A stretch of DNA of 64,000 nucleotides from IMG/VR virus record IMGVR_UViG_3300022699_000302, positions 96,001-160,000 of that record; one strand, 5' to 3'. Origin of the DNA: a virus. The notes under the pieces are model-generated. The model was not told the DNA's origin. It did no database searches and was given only the letters and a program-made list of their open reading frames with translations. The position numbers and the translations under genes were made by a program. This document shows, piece after piece, positions 3,090-59,576 of this stretch (its first letter is position 1; every line of letters begins with the position of its first letter).

Positions 3090-3360
3090 ACTTCTCTTTG
3101 AAGTCAGTGGCATCGAAGCTGAAGGACGTTGTTTCTACCTCGTCCCCCTCTGCAACCACCTCAGCCTCGTCGACGCTGTCGAGCGAGTCATCGTAGAGAT
3201 AGGGTAAGTCGGGCAACCCTCCTATCTCAAACTCCTTCTCGATGAACTGAGCAGCTTGTTCAGCGTTGTAAGCCTTCACCGGGATACGGAAACATACCCG
3301 GAAATCTGCCCAGACTTCAAAGATCTTCTCTTCTTGACGGGTCCCATTTTCCTGTCCCAT
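3088..3360 (-). CDS. hypothetical acidic protein
   Basis: ORF 3088..3459; likely ATG at 3360 (MGQENG) after GGAG. Confidence 0.65.
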   Translation of the reverse strand: MGQENGTRQEEKIFEVWADFRVCFRIPVKAYNAEQAAQFIEKEFEIGGLPDLPYLYDDSLDSVDEAEVVAEGDEVETTSFSFDATDFKEK

Positions 3361-26317: not shown

Positions 26318-26638
26318 CTATTCTCGTTTCAGCATTCCTCTCTGTTTGAGCCAATGAAAGATCGGTTCTGGGCGGTCTTCGTCTTTGTCCGCAGCTTCGC
26401 ATGCCAAGTCCCAGTCGTTGAATCGATGGATCCAGGTCTCGCAGTCCTGACAGTAGAATCCGTTGCTCCCTCCGATAGCGAAGTCATCTTGGCTCAGTGC
26501 TACCTCTGCATCCATACCGTCATGCAAGAGAACTTCACAGGCGATGTCAGCGTTGTAGCTTTCCATAAGATCCTTACCGCCACATTTCGGGCAGACGAAA
26601 GCTATTTCGTAGTTACAGTAGTCTTTGATTTTGGACAT
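26318..26638 (-). CDS. zinc-ribbon protein
   Basis: ATG 26638 after GAGGA; CPKC and CQDC pairs. Confidence 0.7.
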   Translation of the reverse strand: MSKIKDYCNYEIAFVCPKCGGKDLMESYNADIACEVLLHDGMDAEVALSQDDFAIGGSNGFYCQDCETWIHRFNDWDLACEAADKDEDRPEPIFHWLKQRGMLKRE

Positions 26639-26653
26639 GTTTCCTCGTTTCGT

Positions 26654-26687
26654 AAAAAGAAAGCAGGGGTCCCGAAGGACCCCTGCT
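26654..26687 (-). terminator. intrinsic terminator of the tRNA operon
   Basis: Minus strand AGCAGGGGTCC-TTCG-GGACCCCTGCT-TTCTTTTT. Confidence 0.85.
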
Positions 26688-26695
26688 AACAATGA

Positions 26696-26786
26696 TGGCA
26701 CAGCGGGGAGGACTCGAACCTCCAACCTTCCTACTAAGCGGACGGGCCCGCTTTTCAGATGCTCTACGCAATTGAGCTACCGCTGT
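26696..26786 (-). tRNA. tRNA-like gene with expanded, aberrant anticodon arm (91 nt, encoded CCA)
   Basis: Acceptor ACAGCGG/CCGCTGT, D stem GCTC/GAGC, T arm GGAGG-TTCGAGT-CCTCC, G73-CCA; 31-nt anticodon region contains an extra AAGCGG/CCGCTT hairpin. Confidence 0.7.
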
Positions 26787-26787
26787 G

Positions 26788-26863
26788 TGGTGCAGGGAGA
26801 AGGACTCGAACCTTCATTTCCGAGCTTAAGAGCTCGGGTCCTAACCAATTGGATGATCCCTGC
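26788..26863 (-). tRNA. tRNA with non-canonical anticodon loop (6 or 8 nt; Lys-CUU-like)
   Basis: Acceptor GCAGGGA/TCCCTGC, T arm GAAGG-TTCGAGT-CCTTC, A73-CCA; anticodon arm CCGAGC-TCTTAA-GCTCGG. Confidence 0.75.
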
Positions 26864-26864
26864 T

Positions 26865-26942
26865 TGGCGGTCCCGGCGGGATTCGAACCCACACCCTCCT
26901 GAGTTTAGAGCCCAGGCGCGCTGCCAGTCGCGCTTCGGGACC
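26865..26942 (-). tRNA. amber suppressor tRNA (anticodon CUA)
   Basis: GGTCCCG AA GCGC GACTGGCA GCGC G CCTGGG CT-CTA-AA CTCAGG AGGGT GTGGG TTCGAAT CCCGC CGGGACC G CCA. Confidence 0.88.
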
Positions 26943-26947
26943 GTGGT

Positions 26948-27340
26948 TTACGCAGCCTTCGCCGCCTCCTTTCGACTGAATTCCTTCAACGCCAGAGGAA
27001 GCGAAGACAAAAGTTTCGCGGTGTCTTCCCCAGGTTCGACAGCGACAGCCGTCAGCTCATTAGCCCAATCCGGCTCAAGCCACTTCGAGTGTCGGATACC
27101 CTGGGTCTGCAAGACATGACACAACAGATCCAGCGCCTGCTTGTGCTTCACAGAGAGCAAGCAGAGAAACTGGCTGTCGCGATGCCACGCAGTGGCTATG
27201 TCAGAGTTTTCGAAAGTGAATTGAGCGAGGGCGTGAGCAGACTGGGTTGCCTGCTGTCCAGGGCTGAGGTCCCTGCGAGTGACGATGTAGAGTTTATCAC
27301 CCGTTTGGTACTTCGGTTCTTCCTACGTGAAATCCATCAT
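26948..27340 (-). CDS. peptidyl-tRNA hydrolase, Pth2-type, with in-frame amber codon at 27323-27325
   Basis: GGAGG-AA-ATG ATG GAT TTC ACG TAG GAA...; read-through gives MMDFT*EEPKYQTGDKLYIVTRRDLSPGQQATQSAHA...LLSVK...EPDWANELTAVAVEP...LSSLPLAL, the Pth2 pattern; the track shows only the last 70 aa. Confidence 0.8.
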
Positions 27341-27359
27341 TTCCTCCGTGGTTAGTTCG

Positions 27360-27389
27360 GGTATACCCGATGATGAAAAGGCCTGTCAA
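27360..27389 (-). promoter_or_regulatory. sigma70-like promoter of the Pth2-tRNA operon
   Basis: Minus strand TTGACA-18 nt-TATACC. Confidence 0.55.
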
Positions 27390-27391
27390 CA

Positions 27392-27400
27392 CTTTAGGCC
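27392..27400 (-). promoter_or_regulatory. GGCCTAAAG, variant of the promoter-like motif, copy 5
   Basis: TTTCGGCCTAAAG immediately upstream of the TTGACA box. Confidence 0.55.
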
Positions 27401-27488: not shown

Positions 27489-28253
27489 TTAGCTGTTTTC
27501 CTCACTGCTCTTGGATGATTTGGCCGAGTCGGGGCCTGTATCCCCGGTCTCGCTCGGGGTGACCGCGTTTTCGAATTTCTCGAGAGCGTCTTTATCGACT
27601 TTCGTGCCGGCCTCGAGGTAGTCAGCTGCGTTCGAAGCAATGAGGTTGCTCTTCAGCAGTCGTTTCTGCGGTCCGCCGGCGTTGGCGTAATTCACGACCG
27701 ACTTACCGAACGCATCCATAGTGCCCTTGACGTTCTTCGATTGGAGGTGGGCTACGTTGCCTCTGCTGAGACCAAGTCCTTTTGATTCGTCCCAGGTCGA
27801 GATGTCAGAGCCCAGGAATGCGATCGACCAGTTCTCGTCGCTCTCACGGTCCTCGATCATCTTTTTGATGACAGCGGGATCCTTGATCTCTTGGGAACTG
27901 TTTTCTTGCCCATCAGTCATGACAGCGATGATGGATGTGGCCTCACCGAGCTTGTACTTCTTCGCCGCTTCTTCGGTGGTGGTGATGGCCCGGTGGACTG
28001 CGTCGAGCAGAGCCGTCGATCCTCGCGTGGTGTAGTTCTCCATGTTGAGGTCGGCTGCACTACGGATCGGCTGATCTTTGACCAGCTCGATGTACTCGTT
28101 ATCGAAAAGGATGATCGTGAGACGAACATCTTTGTCCTGAGCCTCTTTTTCGAGGCTGGACTTGAAAGCGTTGACCGACTCGATCACGTCCATACGTTGG
28201 GGCTCCATAGAGCCGGAGCGGTCGACCACAAGTGTGACGTATAATCTTTCCAT
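27489..28253 (-). CDS. von Willebrand factor A domain protein
   Basis: MIDAS motif VVDRSGSM, GSTALLDA, VMTDGQENSS. Confidence 0.88.
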   Translation of the reverse strand: MERLYVTLVVDRSGSMEPQRMDVIESVNAFKSSLEKEAQDKDVRLTIILFDNEYIELVKDQPIRSAADLNMENYTTRGSTALLDAVHRAITTTEEAAKKYKLGEATSIIAVMTDGQENSSQEIKDPAVIKKMIEDRESDENWSIAFLGSDISTWDESKGLGLSRGNVAHLQSKNVKGTMDAFGKSVVNYANAGGPQKRLLKSNLIASNAADYLEAGTKVDKDALEKFENAVTPSETGDTGPDSAKSSKSSEENS

Positions 28254-51219: not shown

Positions 51220-53196
51220 ATGGCTGGACAAGGCGGACTACTCACCGACAAGACGACTCTTACCGAGCCAGGTAAGCAGTATCCTCACTCATTCTTTGGG
51301 ATCTCCGATAAGTTCATCCCGACTACCGCGAAGGAGATGTACCGCTGGGCGCAGTACATCTTCATGATCAACCCGATCTTCGCTCAGATCATCAACAAGT
51401 TATCGGGGTACGTCACTACCGACCTTGTCTATGATACCGATAGCGGCAAAGCGACTGAGAAGTGGAAGAACATGCTGGACCAGCAGCTCCACTACAAGCG
51501 CTTCGAGAAGCGGATGCTTCTTGACCTGTTCACCTACGGTAACGCATTCGCCCGGTTTATCTGGCCCCACGAAAAGTACCTGACCTGCAGGAAGTGCAAG
51601 AACGAACAGCTCCTCCGAAACTCGGACTGGAAGTTCAATCGGTTCACCTTCTACGGCAAGTGCAAGAGGTGCGACTACAACGGGCCGATGGACGTCAAAG
51701 AAAAGCAAGTCAAGAACCGTCGTCGAATCAAGCTGATCCGGATCGACCCCCGTTTGATCCAGCCGATCTATGAGCCGGTGACCAAGACTTACGTCTACAC
51801 TTATACCGTCCCCAAACAGGTTGCTGCTGTTCTTCGTTCCTCAACGGCCCGACCGCATCACATCAAGCTTTTTGTAGAGGAGCTGCCCCTGGCCGTTATC
51901 GACGCGGTCAAGAACAACGCGTTAGTCAAGTTCGACAAAGACTCAATCTATCACATGAAGTCGGATTCGATCAGCCAGGACGACGAGTCTCTGGGTTCGA
52001 TCCCGTTCCTTCCGATCTTCAAGATCATCTGGCTCTATCATACGATCTGGCGCGCTCAGGAAGCTGTTTCGCTGGAACGAATCATCCCGTGGACAGCTCT
52101 GAGTCCTCGAGCTTCAGCTACCCAGGACCCGATCGGACAGATCAATCTGGGTGAGTGGCGCGAAAACCTGCAGGAATTCGTCAAGCGCTGGCGCCGTGAC
52201 CCCAACTTCGTTGGGATGATGCCGTACCCCATGGACGTCATCAATCTTCGCGGCGAAGGCAAAGCGCTGGATAACTGGAACGGTCTGACCCACCTCCGTG
52301 ATGTCATGGCCGGCGGCATGGGCGTTCCCCCGAGTTTCTTGTTCGGTGGCTCAGTCTATTCCGGCGCTAACGTTGAACTCCGTGTGCTCGAGAACGACAT
52401 GCGGAACTACGTTTTGATGCTGGAGGACATGCTCCGCAATTTCGTTGTACCCAAACTGACGACGTTCGCTTCTCTGCCGAAGATCGATATTCGCCACGAA
52501 AACTTCAAGATGGCGGACGACATCCAGCAGAAAAGCTTGATCACATCGCTACGTCAGGAAGGTGTTATCTCCGAGGAGACTCTGGTTACCGAGCTCGGAT
52601 TCGACTATGAAGATGAGCAGAACAAGACTCGAGAGGAGATGCGAGAGAAGGCTTCTCAGCAGCTCCAGCAGCTCCGTGAACAGCAGGAACTGCAGATGGA
52701 GTTCCTCAAGAAACAGAACGATGAACAGCTCCGCATGATGCAGGTCCAGATGCAGATGCAGATGCAGGCCCAGCAGGAGCAAATGCAAGCCCAGCAGCAA
52801 GCCCAGGCCGAGCAGATGATGATGCAGCAACAGATGGGCATGGATCCGGCTATGCAGGAGGAACCAGATGCAGTGCCTCCTGGCACCATGGGGGGTCAGG
52901 CCCCGATGGACGTTGCTCCGGTTCAGGCGCCTACCCCGGGAGGTGCTGATGTCATGGCTCAACAGGCTCAGCAGCTTTCTATGACTCCGGAGTTGATCGA
53001 TCAGCAAGCTCGAGCTTTCCTGCAGACCACAACTCCGAAACAGCGAGATATCCTCCTCAGTAACATGGAGAAGACCAATCCGGAGATGGCCCGCAAGATC
53101 CGGCAGCGGATGCAGCAGATCAAGAAAGAAATTGAAAGCTTGAAGAAGCCCAACCCGGACCAGAAACCGTCTACCAGCAAGACACCGTCGCTGTAA
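51220..53196 (+). CDS. portal protein (putative) with Cys4 insertion and Gln/Met-rich tail
   Basis: Size and context; GVPPSFLFGG...YSGANVELRVLEN and LVTELGFDYEDE portal-like segments; CRKC...CKRC insert. Confidence 0.65.
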   Translation: MAGQGGLLTDKTTLTEPGKQYPHSFFGISDKFIPTTAKEMYRWAQYIFMINPIFAQIINKLSGYVTTDLVYDTDSGKATEKWKNMLDQQLHYKRFEKRMLLDLFTYGNAFARFIWPHEKYLTCRKCKNEQLLRNSDWKFNRFTFYGKCKRCDYNGPMDVKEKQVKNRRRIKLIRIDPRLIQPIYEPVTKTYVYTYTVPKQVAAVLRSSTARPHHIKLFVEELPLAVIDAVKNNALVKFDKDSIYHMKSDSISQDDESLGSIPFLPIFKIIWLYHTIWRAQEAVSLERIIPWTALSPRASATQDPIGQINLGEWRENLQEFVKRWRRDPNFVGMMPYPMDVINLRGEGKALDNWNGLTHLRDVMAGGMGVPPSFLFGGSVYSGANVELRVLENDMRNYVLMLEDMLRNFVVPKLTTFASLPKIDIRHENFKMADDIQQKSLITSLRQEGVISEETLVTELGFDYEDEQNKTREEMREKASQQLQQLREQQELQMEFLKKQNDEQLRMMQVQMQMQMQAQQEQMQAQQQAQAEQMMMQQQMGMDPAMQEEPDAVPPGTMGGQAPMDVAPVQAPTPGGADVMAQQAQQLSMTPELIDQQARAFLQTTTPKQRDILLSNMEKTNPEMARKIRQRMQQIKKEIESLKKPNPDQKPSTSKTPSL

Positions 53197-53465
53197 TGGC
53201 TAATCGGCGAAAAGCTACCGACAACGACGTCCAGAAGTTTCTGGATGGCCCCGAGGCATCTACAATGTCTTCGGAAGGCGTCACGTACTTTGAGATTCTC
53301 GATATGAACAACGAGGAGGATCAGCTGCTATACCATGCTATCCTCAACGACACTGACAGGTTCGTGATCCACATGGAAAAGCTGACCTGGGATAAAAATC
53401 AAGGTGTCACCCTCGGAATGAAGATCGCGCTCAAGTACACCGACCGTCATGCCGATCCGGAGTAG
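53196..53465 (+). CDS. hypothetical protein directly upstream of RNAP
   Basis: 89 aa; ends TAG-ATG-TAG-ATG in frame with RNAP. Confidence 0.7.
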   Translation: MANRRKATDNDVQKFLDGPEASTMSSEGVTYFEILDMNNEEDQLLYHAILNDTDRFVIHMEKLTWDKNQGVTLGMKIALKYTDRHADPE

Positions 53466-53471
53466 ATGTAG

Positions 53472-56400
53472 ATGCTTTCGATTGAAGAGCAATTCCAGAG
53501 CCTTCTGGACAACGTCAAAGGCCAGGTATCCGACTTTTTCCCTATTGAGGGTCGGAAGCGCATTTTGAGGGCCAAGAACATTCGTATGGACAAAGCCGAT
53601 CCTGGCCGGATGTTGGCCTGGAACCAGATCCAAAAAGCTAAAGACAACGAGGGGTCTTTCCTCTCTATGGTTCGAGGAGATCTCGAGCTGGTCGACAAGA
53701 ATACCGGCAAGGTTGTTGAGAACAAGAAAAACCAGGTCTTAGCTCACGTCCCCCACATGACGGGCCTCAACTCGTTTGTGGTCAATGGTAAAGACCTGCA
53801 GGTCATCAACCAGCTCCGACGACGCCCCGGTATCTACCCGTCTTACACCTCGGACGACAACGTCCAATCGCGTATTACGTCGACCGGCGCTAATTACGAC
53901 GTCATTCTGAATCGTAAGACCGGTGAGTACCTGATGAAGGTGGGGACCTCGAACCTCAAATTGGTTCCTTTCCTTAAAGATCTCGGCGTACCCGAGAAGA
54001 AGATTATCCGGGCAATCGGCAAGGACGCCTACGATCAGAACATCAATGTCTCGAGTAATCGTGACGAGCTCAAGCGCTTTTGGGACAAGGTTCGTTCAAA
54101 ACCGGCCCCTGAGGATCGGAAGGAGCTCATCAAGGAGGTCAATAACTTCCTTGAGTCGAAGCCTTTGGATGCGGACGTTACCCAAACTACTATCGACACG
54201 CCTCATAAGAATATCTCAGCTAACGCTATTGTTGATGCTACTCGAGCAGTTCGAGAAGTAGCTAACGGCAAGCGTCTCCCCGCTGACATGGAGTCTCTGG
54301 TCTTCAAGTCGATCCACTCTGTAGAAGATTTTGTCGGGGATCGGCTTAAGAAGTCAATTCCCGGGATCAAGGCTCGAATGAAGTTCCAGGTCGACGAAAA
54401 GTCCAAGATTAAGGATATGTTCGGTCCGATGCTTCTATCCAAGCCGATCCTGTCGGAGTTCACGATGTCGGAGTTCACTCGCTACTCCGACCAGAACAAC
54501 CCACTTGATGTCCTTGGTACATCCCAGGGTGTGACAGTCATGGGCGAAGGCGGCATTTCTACGGTCCACCAGGTTCCCGAGGATGTGCGTAATATTCACC
54601 CCACCCATCTAGGGTTCATCGACCCTCTGCATACTGCGGAGGACATCAAGATCGGTCTTTCCAACCACCTCACTGAGGGTGTGTTGAAGCGCGGTAATCA
54701 GATGTATCGTCGCGTCTGGGATGCCAAGAAAAAGAAGATGACGGTTAAGAGTCCGGTTGAGCTTTCTCGATCTGTAGTAGCATTCCCGGATCAATTCAAA
54801 CCCGATGATCCCAAGAGGCCGAAGGCTTTCAAGCCGATCAATAAGACGGTGATGGCCATCAATAAAGGGACATTCGATAAGGTATCGTCCCGAAAAGTCG
54901 ACTACGTATTGCCGACTACTCAGTCTCCTTTCAGTTTCGTAACCAACGCTGTTCCGTTCATGCATTCCAACAGCGGTGCGCGAATGTTGATGGCCGGCCG
55001 CCACCTCGAACAAGCGGTTTCCCTGACGGACCGTGAAGCCCCACTGGTTCAGAGCGAGTATCACGGAGTCCCTTACGACAAGGCTATCGGGAACGCGATG
55101 CTGACCGCTGCGGATAAACCTGGAGTAGTCACAAAGGTCAAACCAGGCGTAATCAGCATTCGTCACGAAGGCGAGAGGAAGTCGACCAAGTACGAGATTC
55201 CCGACCATTATCCGCTGAACTCAGAGACTTACATGACTGAGACCCCACTTGTCAAAGTTGGAGACAAGGTCAAGAAGGGCCAGCGCCTTACCGAATCGAA
55301 TTTCTCGAAAAACGGAGATCTGGCTCTTGGTAAGAACTTGACCACTGCTTTCATACCGTGGAAGGGTCACAACTTTGAAGACGGTATTGTGATCTCTGAA
55401 AATGCGGCTCAGAAGCTGACTTCGGAACACAAACACGAAATGCGGGTCGAAAAAGACCGCAACGTGAAGATCGGTAAGAAGTATCTATTCGCTCAGTTTC
55501 CCGACATGAAAGAGCATTGGGATTCTGATCGAAAAGATGATCTTCCTAAGCCCGGAGACACCATCAAGCCGGGTCAAATCATTATTCCTGCGATCCAGGA
55601 ACAAAAGCTTGGTCCGCAAACCGAATACAGTCGGATCCACAAAGCGCTGCACAAACCCTACAAAGATGCTTCGGTACGGTGGAGAGAGCTGACTGACGGT
55701 AAGGTTGTCCGTGTCGTCAAGAACCCGAATTTCGTCAAGGTATTCGTGAAGACGAAGGAGCCGATGCAGGTCGGCGATAAGCTGTCGTCGCGGGCGGGTT
55801 CGAAAGGGATTGTTACCAAGATCGTCCCCGATAATGAGATGCCTCGTAACGAGGAAGGGGAGGTCGTAGATGTCCTATTCAACCCCTATGGTCTGCCGGG
55901 ACGAATGAACCCGGGTCTGATGTTTGAAGCCTCCATGGGTAAGGTCTCCAAGAAGACCGGTAAACCCACGGTGGTTCAGAACTTCAATAATGTCGACAGC
56001 CAGGTCAAGTGGGTCAAAAGCCAGCTGAAGAAGCACGGTCTCAAAGACACTGAAACAATTGACGACCCCACGCATAACAGGCAACACAAGAACATCCTTT
56101 CCGGACCGGTACACTGGCTCAAGCTCAAGCACCAGGTTCGTAATAAGCTGTCAGCCCGTGGCCACGCCGATGGATACACCATTGATGGACGCCCAGCCAA
56201 GGGTGGGGTCGATGAAGAGGACATCTCTACATCGGCCCAGTCCATCGGCCCTCTCGAGCTCTATTCATTGATGGCCGGGGGTCATACCGAGTTCTTGAAG
56301 GACGCTTCTGGGATCAAGTCGAACCAGAATGTGGATTTCTGGAATGCGTATCAAACCGGTCAGCCCACCCCGGAGCCTGTGGTACCTACAGTCCTGGATC

Positions 56401-59400
56401 GATTCCACTCTTATTTGGAAGGTGCCGGCATCCGTCTCACCAACCGAGACGACACATTGCAGGCTACTCCTTTTACCGACAAGGAGATCCTGAAGCGATC
56501 AAAGGGTCGTATCACGGAACCAGGTGTAGTCCGCACGTCAGGGTTTGACCTGGTCGAGGAAAAGAACGGGTTGTTCGATAAGAAGATCACCGGAGGCTTG
56601 CAGGGCGGACCGGATAAATGGTCTCACATTGAACTGGCCGAACGCATCCTCCACCCGCTTTACGAGAAGCCGGTTCAGGCGGTCACGGGTCTAAAAAAGA
56701 AGGAGTTGGACGGCCTTCTCTCCGGTAAAAAGTTCGTCGATAAGGATGGCAACTTGGTTTCGTCCGATGCAACCAATAATCTAACCGGAGGCGAAGGAGT
56801 CCATCGTCTCCTGTCTAAGATCGACGTCCAAAAGGAACTGAGGTCGTCTCGAGCCCGGTTGGCTACTGCGAACAAGACTGAAAAGCCCAAGTTGTTGAAG
56901 AAGATCAAGTACTTGTCGTCTCTTGATCGGATGAAGTTGAATCCGGCTGAGGCATTCACCAACAAGTATCTTCCGGTGGTCCCTCCGACAGCCCGTCCAA
57001 TTTATGCGATGGATGACGGAAACCTCAATGTAGCCGACCCCAACCACGGTTATCGAGAGGTCCTGTTTATCAATCGTGCTCTCGAGGATCTGAAGAAGCA
57101 CAAGATCGGTAACGAGACTCTAGCGCCGGTCCGGGCAGGGCTCTACAAAGCTACAGCAGGCCTGGTGGGCCTCACCACTCCACTGACCCGAAACGCCAAC
57201 TTCAAGGGGTTCATCTCTACAATCGCGGGTCAACAAAATAAGACCGGTCTATTCCAGTCCAAGGTGGTCAAGCGCACCCAGGACTTATCAGGTCGCTCGA
57301 CCTTGATCGTGGATCCGAAACTCCACATGGATCACATCGGGATTCCGAAGCCGATGGCGAAGAAAGTATTCGCTCCTATGGCTATTCGGAAGATGGTGGT
57401 GTCATACGGCCTGAACCCTGTTGATGCACGAGATGAGCTGCAGAAGCTGACTCCTCGAGCCGAGAAGGCTCTTCAAGACACCATGGCGGAGCGCCCGGTG
57501 ATCCTCAACCGTGCCCCGTCGCTCCACAAGTTCTCGACGGTTTCTGCTATCGGTAAGCTGGTCGACGGCCAGGCTATCCAGATCAACCCCCTGACAGTGG
57601 GAGGCCTAAACGCAGACTTTGATGGAGACACTGCCGCCCTTCACATACCGGTATCAGAGAAGGCCCGTATCGAGTCTTGGAAGAAGCTTCCCTCAAAGAC
57701 TTTGATCTCCCCGAAAGATCTGAAGGTCATCCACGCACCCTCAAAGGAAGCGCTGTTCGGGTTGTACTACATGACTAAGCCAGTAAAAGGAAAAGCGACT
57801 CCGGTTAAAGATGCTCAGGACGTTTTGAAGCAGCTCAAAGAGCGAAAGATCGACGTCAATTCCCCGATCAAGTACAAAGGGAAAACGTGGACTCCTGGCC
57901 ACTTCATGATCAACTCAGTACTGCCGGATAAGTACAAGATTAACCACGAACCATTCACCGGCGGCAAGATCAAATCAGTGATTAATGATATGGCCCGATC
58001 TCATCCCAAGCAGGTCGGTGATGTGATCACGAAGCTCAAGGACTTTGGGTTTGATCACGCTTCGAAGCTAGGCTTCTCGGTAGGTCTGGATGACCTCGAT
58101 AATCCCCAGATCGACAAACTCAACAAGTCGATTCTTCCGAAGATCATGCAGCGGGCTAAGAAGAAGGATCCCGTCGAAGCGATCATTTGGGGGTCCGATA
58201 AAGCCGAAAAGGCAATGGACAAACTCAAAGACAACCGGTTCGCTGAACTGACTTACCTCAGCGGAGCCGGAGGCAAGTATAAGGGCAACGTACAGCAAAT
58301 GGTCATGGCCCCGATTGGAGTAAAAGACACTAAGGGAGCTGCCGTACCGATTCCGATTACTCGAGGTTATGCTCGAGGAATGGATATGGGTTCCTATTGG
58401 GCAACTCTTCCCGGCATGCGTAAAGGCCTGGCGGATCGTGCAATCTCAACAGCAGACACCGGTGCTTTTGCTAAAGAACTGAACAATACTACTATTGGTT
58501 TGAGGATCGGTGGAGAGGATTGCAAGACCACGAACGGGATTGAGCTGCCCGTCAACCACAGCGATCTAGCCGGTCGATTCATTGCTGACGGTTCATTCAA
58601 AGGAAAGTTAGCGTCCCCTGATATCTTGAAGCAAATGCGAGGCAAGGGGGTGAAAACCGTCAAGGTCCGCTCGCCGGCCACCTGTGCACTCAAAACCGGA
58701 GTTTGTGCGAAGTGCATGGGAACCAACGAATCGGGCAGTCTCTACAACAAGGGATTTCATATCGGAGCTTTGGTCGGAACAACGATCTCCGAGCCCCTGA
58801 CCCAGATGGTGATGCGCACGTTCCATACCGGAGCGAAGATTGGTGGTGGCGAGGTTGGCTATCGGAGGATCAATCAGATCTTCAACATGCCGAAGAATAT
58901 TCGTGGCAAGGCCCCCTTGTCGACTCAGGCCGGTAAAGTCGAAGATATCCTTGAGACTGATCGTGGTGGCTGGGAAGTCACTGTTGGAGGAGCAAAACAT
59001 TTCGTACCGACTGAGCTTAAGTTGAGAGTGAAGAAAGGACAGAAAATCAAGGCCGGTGACCAGCTGTCCCAACACGGTGTCGTTCATCCTCGCGAGCTCG
59101 CGAATTACAAGGGGATCGATAAAGCTCGAGATCTCCTTCTGACCGACATCGAGAAAGAAATGAAGGCTTCGGGTCAGAATGTTCGCCGGCGTATCTACGA
59201 AGCGGCCGTGAGGCCTCTTATCGACAAAGCGTTAGTAACTAACCCTGGTGATGCCGAAGCGAAATATCATGTACAACCCGGAGATGTGGTCTCTTCTAAC
59301 CACATCCCTGAGATGAACAAGGGACTCAAACGTCCTCTGCAGGCCGAACCTCACTTGATGTCGATCAAGGAAGTTCCCTTCACGAGAGAAGACTTTATCG

Positions 59401-59576
59401 GCCCGCTGATGTTCCAGAGGATCCCGAGAACTCTAACTAGAGCTCCGGCATATGGGACGAAGACCAAACTCAAGGGAATGGACTCTCACCCTGTTGTCGA
59501 GTATGTATATAACAAGATGGCAGGCGAAGAACCGAAGTACCCCGTGATCATCTGGGATGACGATGTGGCCGAATAG
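53472..59576 (+). CDS. rpoBC: DNA-directed RNA polymerase, fused beta-beta' single polypeptide
   Basis: beta motifs QLRRRPG, HPTHLGFIDP, GARMLMAGRHLEQAV, GHNFEDGIVISE, GDKLSSRAGSKG, NPYGLPGRMN, QSIGPLE; beta' motifs LPVVPPTARP, DLSGRS, LNRAPSLH, NADFDGD, TADTG, RSPATC...CAKC, SEPLTQMVMRTFHTG. Confidence 0.95.
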   Translation: MLSIEEQFQSLLDNVKGQVSDFFPIEGRKRILRAKNIRMDKADPGRMLAWNQIQKAKDNEGSFLSMVRGDLELVDKNTGKVVENKKNQVLAHVPHMTGLNSFVVNGKDLQVINQLRRRPGIYPSYTSDDNVQSRITSTGANYDVILNRKTGEYLMKVGTSNLKLVPFLKDLGVPEKKIIRAIGKDAYDQNINVSSNRDELKRFWDKVRSKPAPEDRKELIKEVNNFLESKPLDADVTQTTIDTPHKNISANAIVDATRAVREVANGKRLPADMESLVFKSIHSVEDFVGDRLKKSIPGIKARMKFQVDEKSKIKDMFGPMLLSKPILSEFTMSEFTRYSDQNNPLDVLGTSQGVTVMGEGGISTVHQVPEDVRNIHPTHLGFIDPLHTAEDIKIGLSNHLTEGVLKRGNQMYRRVWDAKKKKMTVKSPVELSRSVVAFPDQFKPDDPKRPKAFKPINKTVMAINKGTFDKVSSRKVDYVLPTTQSPFSFVTNAVPFMHSNSGARMLMAGRHLEQAVSLTDREAPLVQSEYHGVPYDKAIGNAMLTAADKPGVVTKVKPGVISIRHEGERKSTKYEIPDHYPLNSETYMTETPLVKVGDKVKKGQRLTESNFSKNGDLALGKNLTTAFIPWKGHNFEDGIVISENAAQKLTSEHKHEMRVEKDRNVKIGKKYLFAQFPDMKEHWDSDRKDDLPKPGDTIKPGQIIIPAIQEQKLGPQTEYSRIHKALHKPYKDASVRWRELTDGKVVRVVKNPNFVKVFVKTKEPMQVGDKLSSRAGSKGIVTKIVPDNEMPRNEEGEVVDVLFNPYGLPGRMNPGLMFEASMGKVSKKTGKPTVVQNFNNVDSQVKWVKSQLKKHGLKDTETIDDPTHNRQHKNILSGPVHWLKLKHQVRNKLSARGHADGYTIDGRPAKGGVDEEDISTSAQSIGPLELYSLMAGGHTEFLKDASGIKSNQNVDFWNAYQTGQPTPEPVVPTVLDRFHSYLEGAGIRLTNRDDTLQATPFTDKEILKRSKGRITEPGVVRTSGFDLVEEKNGLFDKKITGGLQGGPDKWSHIELAERILHPLYEKPVQAVTGLKKKELDGLLSGKKFVDKDGNLVSSDATNNLTGGEGVHRLLSKIDVQKELRSSRARLATANKTEKPKLLKKIKYLSSLDRMKLNPAEAFTNKYLPVVPPTARPIYAMDDGNLNVADPNHGYREVLFINRALEDLKKHKIGNETLAPVRAGLYKATAGLVGLTTPLTRNANFKGFISTIAGQQNKTGLFQSKVVKRTQDLSGRSTLIVDPKLHMDHIGIPKPMAKKVFAPMAIRKMVVSYGLNPVDARDELQKLTPRAEKALQDTMAERPVILNRAPSLHKFSTVSAIGKLVDGQAIQINPLTVGGLNADFDGDTAALHIPVSEKARIESWKKLPSKTLISPKDLKVIHAPSKEALFGLYYMTKPVKGKATPVKDAQDVLKQLKERKIDVNSPIKYKGKTWTPGHFMINSVLPDKYKINHEPFTGGKIKSVINDMARSHPKQVGDVITKLKDFGFDHASKLGFSVGLDDLDNPQIDKLNKSILPKIMQRAKKKDPVEAIIWGSDKAEKAMDKLKDNRFAELTYLSGAGGKYKGNVQQMVMAPIGVKDTKGAAVPIPITRGYARGMDMGSYWATLPGMRKGLADRAISTADTGAFAKELNNTTIGLRIGGEDCKTTNGIELPVNHSDLAGRFIADGSFKGKLASPDILKQMRGKGVKTVKVRSPATCALKTGVCAKCMGTNESGSLYNKGFHIGALVGTTISEPLTQMVMRTFHTGAKIGGGEVGYRRINQIFNMPKNIRGKAPLSTQAGKVEDILETDRGGWEVTVGGAKHFVPTELKLRVKKGQKIKAGDQLSQHGVVHPRELANYKGIDKARDLLLTDIEKEMKASGQNVRRRIYEAAVRPLIDKALVTNPGDAEAKYHVQPGDVVSSNHIPEMNKGLKRPLQAEPHLMSIKEVPFTREDFIGPLMFQRIPRTLTRAPAYGTKTKLKGMDSHPVVEYVYNKMAGEEPKYPVIIWDDDVAE

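What the first reader, a model, noticed from the sequence alone, without database searches (positions are those of the whole stretch)
26654..27400. Amber-gated Pth2 gene followed by its own amber-suppressor tRNA in one operon
Seen: a promoter region (GGCCTAAAG plus TTGACA-18-TATACC), a GGAGG RBS, then ATG ATG GAT TTC ACG TAG (27323-27325). The same frame continues for 124 codons into a complete Pth2-type domain (KLYIVTRRDLSPGQQATQSAHA...EPD...ELTAVA..P...LPLAL). No ATG/GTG/TTG occurs between the TAG and 27160, so the domain cannot be made without read-through. After a 5-bp gap past its stop comes a CUA-anticodon tRNA, then two more odd tRNAs and a strong terminator. Known: Pth2 recycles peptidyl-tRNA; very short ORFs (lambda bar minigenes) cause peptidyl-tRNA drop-off; phage suppressor tRNAs are usually linked to genome-wide recoding, which is absent here. 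Inference: a self-contained translational switch. Hydrolase is made only when the suppressor is charged and outcompetes RF1, and the M(M)DFT-stop minigene may sense termination or peptidyl-tRNA stress. I do not know of this architecture being described.
Basis: partly seen in the sequence, partly recalled or inferred. Interest (0 to 1): 0.92.

Follow-up and report, generated by a model that had tools for sequence, protein, structure and literature searches.

The report
Amber-gated phage Pth2 gene with suppressor tRNA
A 194-kb phage with the normal genetic code has a UAG stop as the sixth codon of a small tRNA-hydrolase-like gene and encodes a UAG-reading tRNA 5 bases after that gene; distant phages, some lab-grown, share this layout, so the enzyme is probably made only when the phage's own tRNA overrides the stop.

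Summary
On the minus strand the order is: a promoter-like motif, GGAGG, ATG ATG GAT TTC ACG TAG (27323-27325), 124 in-frame codons of a Pth2-fold protein with no start codon for 54 codons, a 5-nt gap, a tRNA with anticodon CUA, two aberrant tRNA-like genes, and a strong terminator. These are the only tRNAs in the 194-kb genome.

The genome uses the standard code. TAG ends about a quarter of its genes, and I found no other TAG-interrupted gene.

The decisive evidence is comparative. In 18 diverged lineages of phage Pth2-like genes, a start codon plus 0-5 codons ends in an in-frame TAG just before the domain. These include Mycobacterium phages Bxz1 and Phabba, Serratia phage BF and Tenacibaculum phage pT24. 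The stop is never TAA or TGA, and the next base is always a purine. Every lineage I could check also encodes a CUA-type tRNA.

The most likely reading is a natural suppressor-tRNA AND-gate (a coherent feed-forward loop) on a peptidyl-tRNA-hydrolase-like enzyme. Why the enzyme is gated remains inferred, and nothing here is experimental.

I found no published description. Earlier notes of this scan report the same design in many other genomes.

The parts
27360..27389 (-). Promoter-like element: TTGACA, 18 nt, TATACC
   Evidence: Read from the sequence. Both hexamers are conserved in L009, L011 and L012. The consensus scan did not call it. It is unique in the genome.
27343..27347 (-). Shine-Dalgarno GGAGG, 2 and 5 nt before the two ATGs
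   Evidence: ACGGAGG is invariant in four relatives.
27323..27340 (-). Leader mini-ORF ATG ATG GAT TTC ACG TAG (M(M)DFT-stop). The amber codon is at 27323-27325 and is followed by G.
   Evidence: TTCACGTAGG is invariant in L009, L011 and L012. Equivalent leaders ending in TAG occur in 17 other lineages.
26948..27322 (-). Pth2-like hydrolase coding sequence after the TAG (124 codons plus TAA). It has no in-frame ATG/GTG/TTG for 54 codons.
   Evidence: Pfam PF01981. AF2 pLDDT 90.5 and Foldseek matches to Pth2/Bit1. ORF list.
26865..26942 (-). tRNA with anticodon CUA (amber suppressor type). It has a 7-nt loop CUCUAAA, a 6-bp anticodon stem, A8, discriminator G and an encoded CCA.
   Evidence: ARAGORN and Rfam, 48.7 bits; folds.
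26788..26863 (-). tRNA-like gene 2. The anticodon arm reads as 5 bp plus an 8-nt loop CUCUUAAG (ARAGORN 'ctta', Lys|Stop), or as a 7-bp stem closed by the tetraloop CUUA. CCA is encoded.
26696..26786 (-). tRNA-like gene 3. The acceptor end has A1-U72 and G73 and the T arm is normal, but a 31-nt irregular hairpin stands where the 17-nt anticodon arm should be. CCA is encoded.
   Evidence: Rfam 46.2 bits, with 27 nt where the model has 13; folds.
26652..26687 (-). Intrinsic terminator that closes the operon
   Evidence: 11-bp stem, 8 GC pairs, tail TTCTTTTT.

Best explanation
This is a one-promoter operon in which the mRNA of a Pth2-like hydrolase carries a UAG 5-6 codons after its start, and the same transcript carries a tRNA with anticodon CUA. 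Ribosomes start at the SD-served ATG, make M(M)DFT and reach the UAG. Either RF1 ends the leader, or the short peptidyl-tRNA drops off, or the phage tRNA inserts a residue and the ribosome goes on to make the hydrolase. Output therefore depends on both the mRNA and processed, charged suppressor tRNA competing with RF1. That is a coherent feed-forward AND-gate, which delays and sharpens expression and blocks leaky synthesis. The TAG lies in the unconserved, unstructured N-terminal extension, so the identity of the inserted residue does not matter; the codon is there as a gate. The likely purpose (inferred) is to tie a peptidyl-tRNA-hydrolase-type activity to the state in which UAG is being read through. 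In that state, competition and stalling at UAG, and read-through to mRNA ends, would raise the load of abandoned peptidyl-tRNA. Shown here: the anatomy, the fold, the standard code, and conservation of the TAG together with a CUA tRNA. Inferred: that the tRNA is expressed and charged, that read-through occurs, what the enzyme's substrate is, and the physiological purpose.
For: (1) The anatomy is as listed under parts. (2) No in-frame start codon follows for 54 codons after the TAG, and the first beta-strand of the fold begins 10 codons after it, so a start further down would lose the fold. (3) A start codon plus 0-5 codons ending in an in-frame TAG directly before the Pth2 domain occurs in 18 lineages at 27-76% protein identity. 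They are: the window; L009/L010; L011/L012; L001; L002; L004; L007; L008; L013; L017; L018; LR756500; LR756501; LR756504; Tenacibaculum phage pT24; Serratia phage BF, where the gene is unannotated; and Mycobacterium phages of the Bxz1 group and Phabba. (4) The leader stop is TAG in every lineage, never TAA or TGA. The next base is a purine in every lineage, a context known to favour amber suppression in E. coli (own knowledge: Bossi; Miller and Albertini). (5) A CUA-type tRNA is present in every leader lineage that could be checked. It often lies within 5-60 nt of the gene end (window, L004, L017), and it lies elsewhere in the genome in BF and LR756504. (6) On a tree the leader state is clustered: 3 changes against a shuffled mean of 7.1, with 0 of 500 shuffles as low. 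It persists across branches longer than 1 change per site. (7) The three tRNA-like genes after pth2 are the only ones in the 194-kb genome. (8) The SD spacing fits the ATG rather than the codon after the TAG in most lineages. In the cluster C mycobacteriophages, TTGACA-N17-TACTGT ends 6 nt before ATG TAG, which suggests a leaderless AUG-UAG transcript. (9) A synthetic circuit with the same topology removes leaky expression (PMC7969014, listed).
Against: Nothing is experimental: expression, processing, charging and read-through are all untested. TAG ends 50 of 190 confident genes in this genome. Those stops show no avoidance of a purine at +4 and no surplus of back-up stops, so a strong general suppressor would extend many phage proteins; suppression must be weak, timed or tolerated. 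The tRNA has a 6-bp anticodon stem and A8, so its decoding efficiency is uncertain. Some relatives have CUA tRNAs next to pth2 without a leader TAG (L022, L024), and others have UUA tRNAs (L021, L028), so the gate is not obligatory for the pairing. In 13 of the 17 leaders tallied (one per lineage; L011/L012 shares L009's context), the codon after TAG is RTN, and it is GTG in the mycobacteriophages. That leaves room for some re-initiation in those lineages. The active-site loops differ from solved Pth2: GKGK becomes G-QQ, and DAG..T becomes EPD with a 4-residue deletion. The substrate may therefore not be ordinary peptidyl-tRNA.
Confidence: 0.65

Rival explanations
1. Termination followed by re-initiation. 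The mini-ORF is translated and ends at the TAG, and the ribosome restarts at the adjacent codon without any suppressor. The tRNA-CUA would serve another purpose.
For: The codon after the TAG is ATT, ATA, GTG, GTT or GTA in 13 of the 17 leaders tallied. In Bxz1 and Phabba it is GTG, and that codon is the annotated start.
Against: In this window and its three closest relatives the next codons are GAA or GGG, and no start-like codon follows before the fold begins. Coupling would work with any stop, yet every leader ends in TAG, the codon matched by the co-encoded tRNA. BF and L008 have AAT and AAC after the TAG.
Confidence: 0.1
2. A leader minigene acting as a regulator without the phage tRNA. 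The 2-6 codon ORF behaves like a lambda bar minigene (peptidyl-tRNA drop-off, tRNA sequestration) or simply keeps expression very low. The hydrolase would arise only from rare host near-cognate read-through.
For: Leader lengths of 1-6 codons fall in the range where drop-off is frequent (own knowledge of minigene work). The downstream gene belongs to the family that clears such products.
Against: This does not explain why the stop is always TAG, or why a CUA tRNA is always present, often a few bases away. The leader peptide is not conserved between lineages.
Confidence: 0.1
3. A broken gene or an assembly error: a nonsense mutation in a decaying pth2.
For: By itself, one in-frame stop near the start looks like a lesion. 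Reads could not be inspected.
Against: The same early TAG occurs in 18 diverged lineages, including many independently sequenced cultured phages. The rest of the gene is intact, with a confident fold.
Confidence: 0.03
4. Part of a genome-wide or block-wise change of genetic code (TAG read as an amino acid in many genes).
For: LR756501 has a second TAG inside the Pth2 domain. Lak phages, which are recoded, also carry homologues.
Against: In this genome, density and gene length do not improve with TAG read as sense. TAG ends about a quarter of the genes. None of 10 TAG-joined ORF pairs has a Pfam domain spanning the TAG. A scan for other start-proximal TAG leaders found only this gene, plus one ATG TAG ATG case that has its own start.
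Confidence: 0.03

Closest known systems
Stop-codon recoding in phages with phage-encoded suppressor tRNAs (TAG read as Gln, 'code 15'; bioRxiv 10.1101/2021.08.26.457843; PMC9523058)
   Same: A phage tRNA-CUA decodes in-frame TAG in phage genes inside a standard-code host. Expression depends on the suppressor, which has been proposed as a timing device.
   Different: Here a single gene is affected. The TAG sits at codon 2-7 of an unconserved leader, not at coding positions across late genes, and the genome still uses TAG as an ordinary stop. The paper does not mention a hydrolase.
prfB (RF2) autoregulation through an early in-frame UGA (own knowledge)
   Same: A stop codon early in a translation-factor gene makes output depend on the competition at that stop.
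   Different: prfB escapes by a +1 frameshift and senses its own product. Here the escape is by a dedicated tRNA, and there is no evidence that the product acts on the gate.
Synthetic suppressor-tRNA feed-forward loop (PMC7969014)
   Same: It has the same topology: one input drives both an amber-interrupted gene and its suppressor tRNA, which gives an AND-gate with low leak.
   Different: It is engineered in E. coli. The present case is natural, ancient and tied to one protein family.
Lambda bar minigenes and peptidyl-tRNA drop-off (own knowledge)
   Same: Very short ORFs of 2-6 codons, whose products are substrates of peptidyl-tRNA hydrolase.
   Different: bar minigenes are not followed in frame by a gene and are not paired with a suppressor tRNA.
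Archaeal and eukaryotic Pth2 (PF01981; PDB 2zv3, 3erj, 1q7s, 1xty)
   Same: The same fold, and the conserved Q..HA and TA(V/I)A..P motifs.
   Different: The Lys-rich GKGK loop is G-QQ and the DAG..T loop is EPD with a 4-residue deletion. The clade was found only in phage contigs, not in 185,579 bacterial and archaeal genomes searched by its motif.

Membership tests
PTH2 peptidyl-tRNA hydrolase (PF01981) | Profile match above the curated cut-off | tested here: met
   32 bits against 23, E=1.5e-7, residues 16-106.
PTH2 peptidyl-tRNA hydrolase (PF01981) | Pth2 alpha/beta fold | tested here: met
   AF2 pLDDT 90.5. Foldseek top 13 hits are all Pth2/Bit1, TM 0.64-0.70, probability 1.0.
PTH2 peptidyl-tRNA hydrolase (PF01981) | Active-site loop residues of solved Pth2 (the Lys of the GKGK loop and the Asp of DAG; their catalytic role is recalled from memory, not checked in a paper) | tested here: inconclusive
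   In the HMM alignment to 2zv3, 1rzw and 24bt, Lys aligns with an invariant Gln, Asp aligns with an invariant Glu, and there is a 4-residue deletion.
PTH2 peptidyl-tRNA hydrolase (PF01981) | Hydrolysis of peptidyl-tRNA | not testable with these tools
   Needs an enzyme assay.
Amber suppressor tRNA | Cloverleaf with a 7-nt anticodon loop, U33, anticodon CUA and purine 37 | tested here: met
   Loop CUCUAAA. Rfam 48.7 bits, and ARAGORN calls the CUA anticodon.
Amber suppressor tRNA | Canonical 5-bp anticodon stem and U8 | tested here: not met
   6-bp stem and A8. A similar tRNA occurs in L024, and a 6-bp stem in L004.
Amber suppressor tRNA | Expressed, processed, aminoacylated and active in read-through | not testable with these tools
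Genome-wide stop-codon recoding (code 15 type) | Low coding density under the standard code that is rescued by reading TAG as sense, with many TAG-interrupted genes | tested here: not met
   Density 0.870 against 0.871. TAG ends 63 of 235 genes. No other interrupted gene found.
Programmed stop-codon read-through | The in-frame stop is conserved in homologues and the downstream ORF lacks its own start | tested here: met
   18 lineages. No start for 54 codons in this window.
Programmed stop-codon read-through | Detection of the read-through product | not testable with these tools
   Needs proteomics or a reporter.

The most novel reading that the evidence does not exclude
The module could be a self-tuning controller of the decoding state. 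In this reading the Pth2-like enzyme, whose active site is remodelled, acts on the suppressor tRNA's own acylated or peptidyl forms. Read-through of UAG would then feed back on the suppressor, either positively (a bistable switch into an amber-reading state) or negatively (a rheostat that keeps read-through low enough to spare the phage's own TAG stops). That would explain why standard-code phages keep suppressor tRNAs, and it may be the seed from which full TAG recoding evolves.
Probability: 0.2. Interest if true: 0.9.

Novelty: new variant of a known kind. Interest (0 to 1): 0.8.

Why it matters
Suppressor tRNAs in phages that keep the standard code have had no known target. Here they have a conserved one: a single, early UAG in a tRNA-hydrolase-like gene that usually lies beside them. 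If the gate works as read, it is a natural tRNA-operated translational AND-gate, of the kind synthetic biologists built independently. It also links stop-codon suppression to the clearing of abandoned peptidyl-tRNA. It can be tested at once in cultured systems (Bxz1-group mycobacteriophages, Serratia phage BF, Tenacibaculum phage pT24), where the gene is at present mis-started or unannotated. It may also show the first step on the path to full TAG recoding.

Tried and rejected
- Exact search of viral contigs for the tRNA-CUA anticodon arm: no match.
- Motif-based scan of 185,579 bacterial and archaeal genomes: no relative.
- DNA search of the phage collection with the locus: no match.
- Other amber-gated genes in this genome: candidates from a start-proximal stop scan all lie inside other genes or have their own start. 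Pfam on 10 TAG-joined ORF pairs shows no domain across a TAG.
- Adaptation of natural TAG stops to a suppressor: none seen. The +4 base is a purine in 56%, as for TAA, and there is no excess of nearby back-up stops.
- Initiator-tRNA idea (UAG as a start read by an amber initiator): rejected. The tRNA has G1-C72 and C11-G24, and the SD serves the ATG.
- A read-through-stimulating mRNA structure: RNAalifold gives only a weak SD/leader hairpin (ACGGAG with UUCACGU) made of invariant pairs, so there is no covariation to judge it by.
- L005/L006: I first misread these as GTG-TAG in another frame. The DNA shows an ordinary GGAGGA-6 nt-GTG start.
- GGCCTAAAG as a phage promoter motif: only two copies in the genome, not supported.
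- Literature: eight searches found no description of an amber-gated pth2. Borges et al. mention no hydrolase.

Full report
**What is there**

The window is bases 96001-160000 of a single 194,114-bp phage contig. The minus strand between 27389 and 26652 holds a compact unit with the following parts.

- A TTGACA-18 nt-TATACC motif.
- GGAGG, then ATG ATG GAT TTC ACG TAG, with the amber codon at 27323-27325.
- 124 further in-frame codons ending at TAA 26950-26948.
- A 5-nt gap, then three tRNA-like genes, each ending in an encoded CCA.
- A terminator with an 11-bp stem.

The first ATG, GTG or TTG in the frame after the TAG is 54 codons downstream. The first strand of the fold begins at codon 10 after the TAG. 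Without read-through, therefore, no functional domain can be made from a canonical start.

**The protein**

The post-TAG sequence matches Pfam PTH2 above its cut-off. It folds with pLDDT 90.5. Its only significant structural neighbours are archaeal Pth2 and human Bit1.

A profile alignment to solved Pth2 shows that the Q..HA and TA(V/I)A..P motifs are kept. The Lys-rich GKGK loop is G-QQ, and the DAG..T loop is EPD with a 4-residue deletion. I therefore call the protein Pth2-like and leave its substrate open.

The family is large: 4,544 cluster representatives at E<=1e-3. By its motif it was found only on phage contigs and not in bacterial or archaeal genomes.

**The tRNAs**

- tRNA 1 has a normal cloverleaf and the loop CUCUAAA (anticodon CUA), but a 6-bp anticodon stem and A8.
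- tRNA-like gene 2 has either an 8-nt loop (CUCUUAAG; ARAGORN 'ctta') or a 7-bp stem closed by a CUUA tetraloop.
- tRNA-like gene 3 has an acceptor end with A1-U72 and G73, but a 31-nt irregular hairpin in place of the anticodon arm.

These three are the only tRNA genes in the genome.

**The genetic code**

- A simple gene caller gives 87% coding density under the standard code, with no gain if any stop is read as sense.
- Predicted genes end TAA 126, TAG 63, TGA 45.
- A scan for other start-proximal stops followed by long ORFs, together with Pfam on ten TAG-joined ORF pairs, found no second amber-interrupted gene.
- Natural TAG stops show no context bias and no excess of back-up stops.

The phage is not recoded. 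It also shows no sign of having adapted to a strong general suppressor.

**Relatives**

I used translated searches that do not depend on gene calls and read the DNA upstream of each hit.

A start codon followed by 0-5 codons and an in-frame TAG lies directly before the domain in each of these lineages:

| Lineage | Leader |
|---|---|
| Window | MMDFT* |
| L009/L010 and L011/L012 | MKFT* |
| L001 | MTPI* |
| L002 | MK* |
| L004 | MT* |
| L007 | MENV* |
| L008 | ML* |
| L013 | MT* |
| L017 | MS* |
| L018 | MK* |
| LR756501 | MS* |
| LR756500 | MK* |
| LR756504 | MT* |
| Tenacibaculum phage pT24 | MK* (annotated from an internal start) |
| Serratia phage BF | MTH* (gene not annotated) |
| Mycobacterium phages Bxz1, IkeLoa, Cane17, HyRo | ATG TAG GTG |
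| Mycobacterium phage Phabba | GTG TAG GTG |

- The leader stop is TAG in every case.
- The next base is always A or G.
- The leader peptides are unrelated between lineages.
- The SD is placed for the ATG.
- In the mycobacteriophages, a TTGACA-N17-TACTGT motif ends 6 nt before the ATG, so the mRNA may be leaderless and begin AUG UAG.

A CUA-type tRNA is present in every leader lineage where enough DNA is available. It is often immediately downstream. In BF and LR756504 it lies elsewhere in the genome.

Eight lineages lack the leader: L005/6, L021, L022, L023, L024, L028, RAS14 and Aeromonas CC2. Four of them form one clade. On the tree the leader state needs only three changes, against a shuffled mean of 7.1. 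Some of these lineages still have CUA tRNAs (L022, L024) or UUA tRNAs (L021, L028) beside the gene. The link between this protein family and suppressor tRNAs is therefore wider than the gate itself.

**Mechanism**

The best-supported reading is that the phage tRNA reads the early UAG, so hydrolase synthesis requires both the mRNA and active suppressor tRNA competing with RF1. Because both come from one promoter, this is a coherent feed-forward AND-gate, the design used synthetically to remove leak (PMC7969014).

Two points argue that the codon is a gate and not a coding position. It sits in an unconserved, low-confidence N-terminal stretch, and the stop is always TAG with a purine after it.

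The purpose is inferred. Amber suppression should raise the load of abandoned peptidyl-tRNA through stalling and drop-off at UAG and read-through to mRNA ends. A hydrolase made in step with suppression would clear that load. Feedback on the suppressor itself is an open and more novel possibility.

**Rivals**

- Re-initiation at the codon after the TAG could contribute where that codon is GTG, ATT or ATA. It cannot work in this window, where the codon is GAA, and it does not explain why the stop is always TAG.
- A pure minigene regulator does not explain the tRNA.
- A pseudogene or assembly error is excluded by conservation.
- Genome-wide recoding is excluded here.

**Novelty**

Eight literature searches and one paper reading found no description of this design. 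Earlier notes of this scan report the same architecture in many other genomes, and one later check priced the bold reading low for lack of experiments and because TAG is a common stop. I tested that point here and keep it as the main evidence against a strong suppressor.

I rate the finding a new variant of a known kind: programmed stop read-through by a phage suppressor tRNA. Interest is high because it is conserved, sits in well-studied cultured phages, and is directly testable.

Noticed in passing
window 53463-53474 and 53472-59576 (+): A 2034-aa gene encodes a fused beta/beta' multisubunit RNA polymerase (Rpb2 domains followed by Rpb1 domains in one polypeptide). It is preceded by TAG ATG TAG ATG, so an 89-aa ORF (53196-53465), a start-stop ATG-TAG and the polymerase are all in one frame, separated only by two TAGs. 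Amber read-through would fuse them. This may be chance.
   Followed up: partly
window 26788-26863 and 26696-26786 (-): Two tRNA-like genes have good acceptor, D and T arms and an encoded CCA, but non-decoding anticodon arms. One is an 8-nt loop or a closed CUUA tetraloop; the other is a 31-nt irregular hairpin. They have no nucleotide homologues in the nearest relatives. They might be decoys, acceptor-end substrates or processing signals.
   Followed up: partly
L009 2904-3630 and L010 2904-3500: In the closest relatives, pth2 is followed by a run of at least seven structured tRNA-like RNAs, each ending in CCA. Several carry large insertions or tetraloop-closed arms. Only then comes the CUA tRNA. 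ARAGORN misses almost all of them.
   Followed up: no
leaders of the 18 lineages (for example L017 353-358, L030 2986-2991, L014 1486-1491): The codon right after the leader TAG is ATT, ATA, GTG, GTT or GTA (Ile or Val) in 13 of the 17 leaders tallied, although its distance to the first strand varies. This could reflect suppression context or a residual re-initiation codon.
   Followed up: partly
L029 (LR756501) 3094-3096: The 735-kb phage has a second in-frame TAG inside the Pth2 domain (EFP*IYEQW), again followed by ATT. This suggests wider TAG reading in that genome.
   Followed up: no
window 27326-27349 (-): The SD region ACGGAG can pair with the leader codons UUCACGU. All positions are invariant in four relatives, so the hairpin can be neither supported nor rejected.
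   Followed up: partly
L015 (Serratia phage BF) 1474-1812; L032 (Tenacibaculum phage pT24) 2965-3918: Public annotations miss or truncate the gene. BF has no CDS over the Pth2-like ORF, and pT24 starts it at an internal codon of a 314-aa fusion protein.
   Followed up: yes
window 27489-28253 (-) and 26318-26638 (-): The neighbours of the operon are a von Willebrand factor A domain protein (PF00092, E=2.3e-7) upstream and a 106-aa Cys-rich protein with no family downstream.
   Followed up: partly
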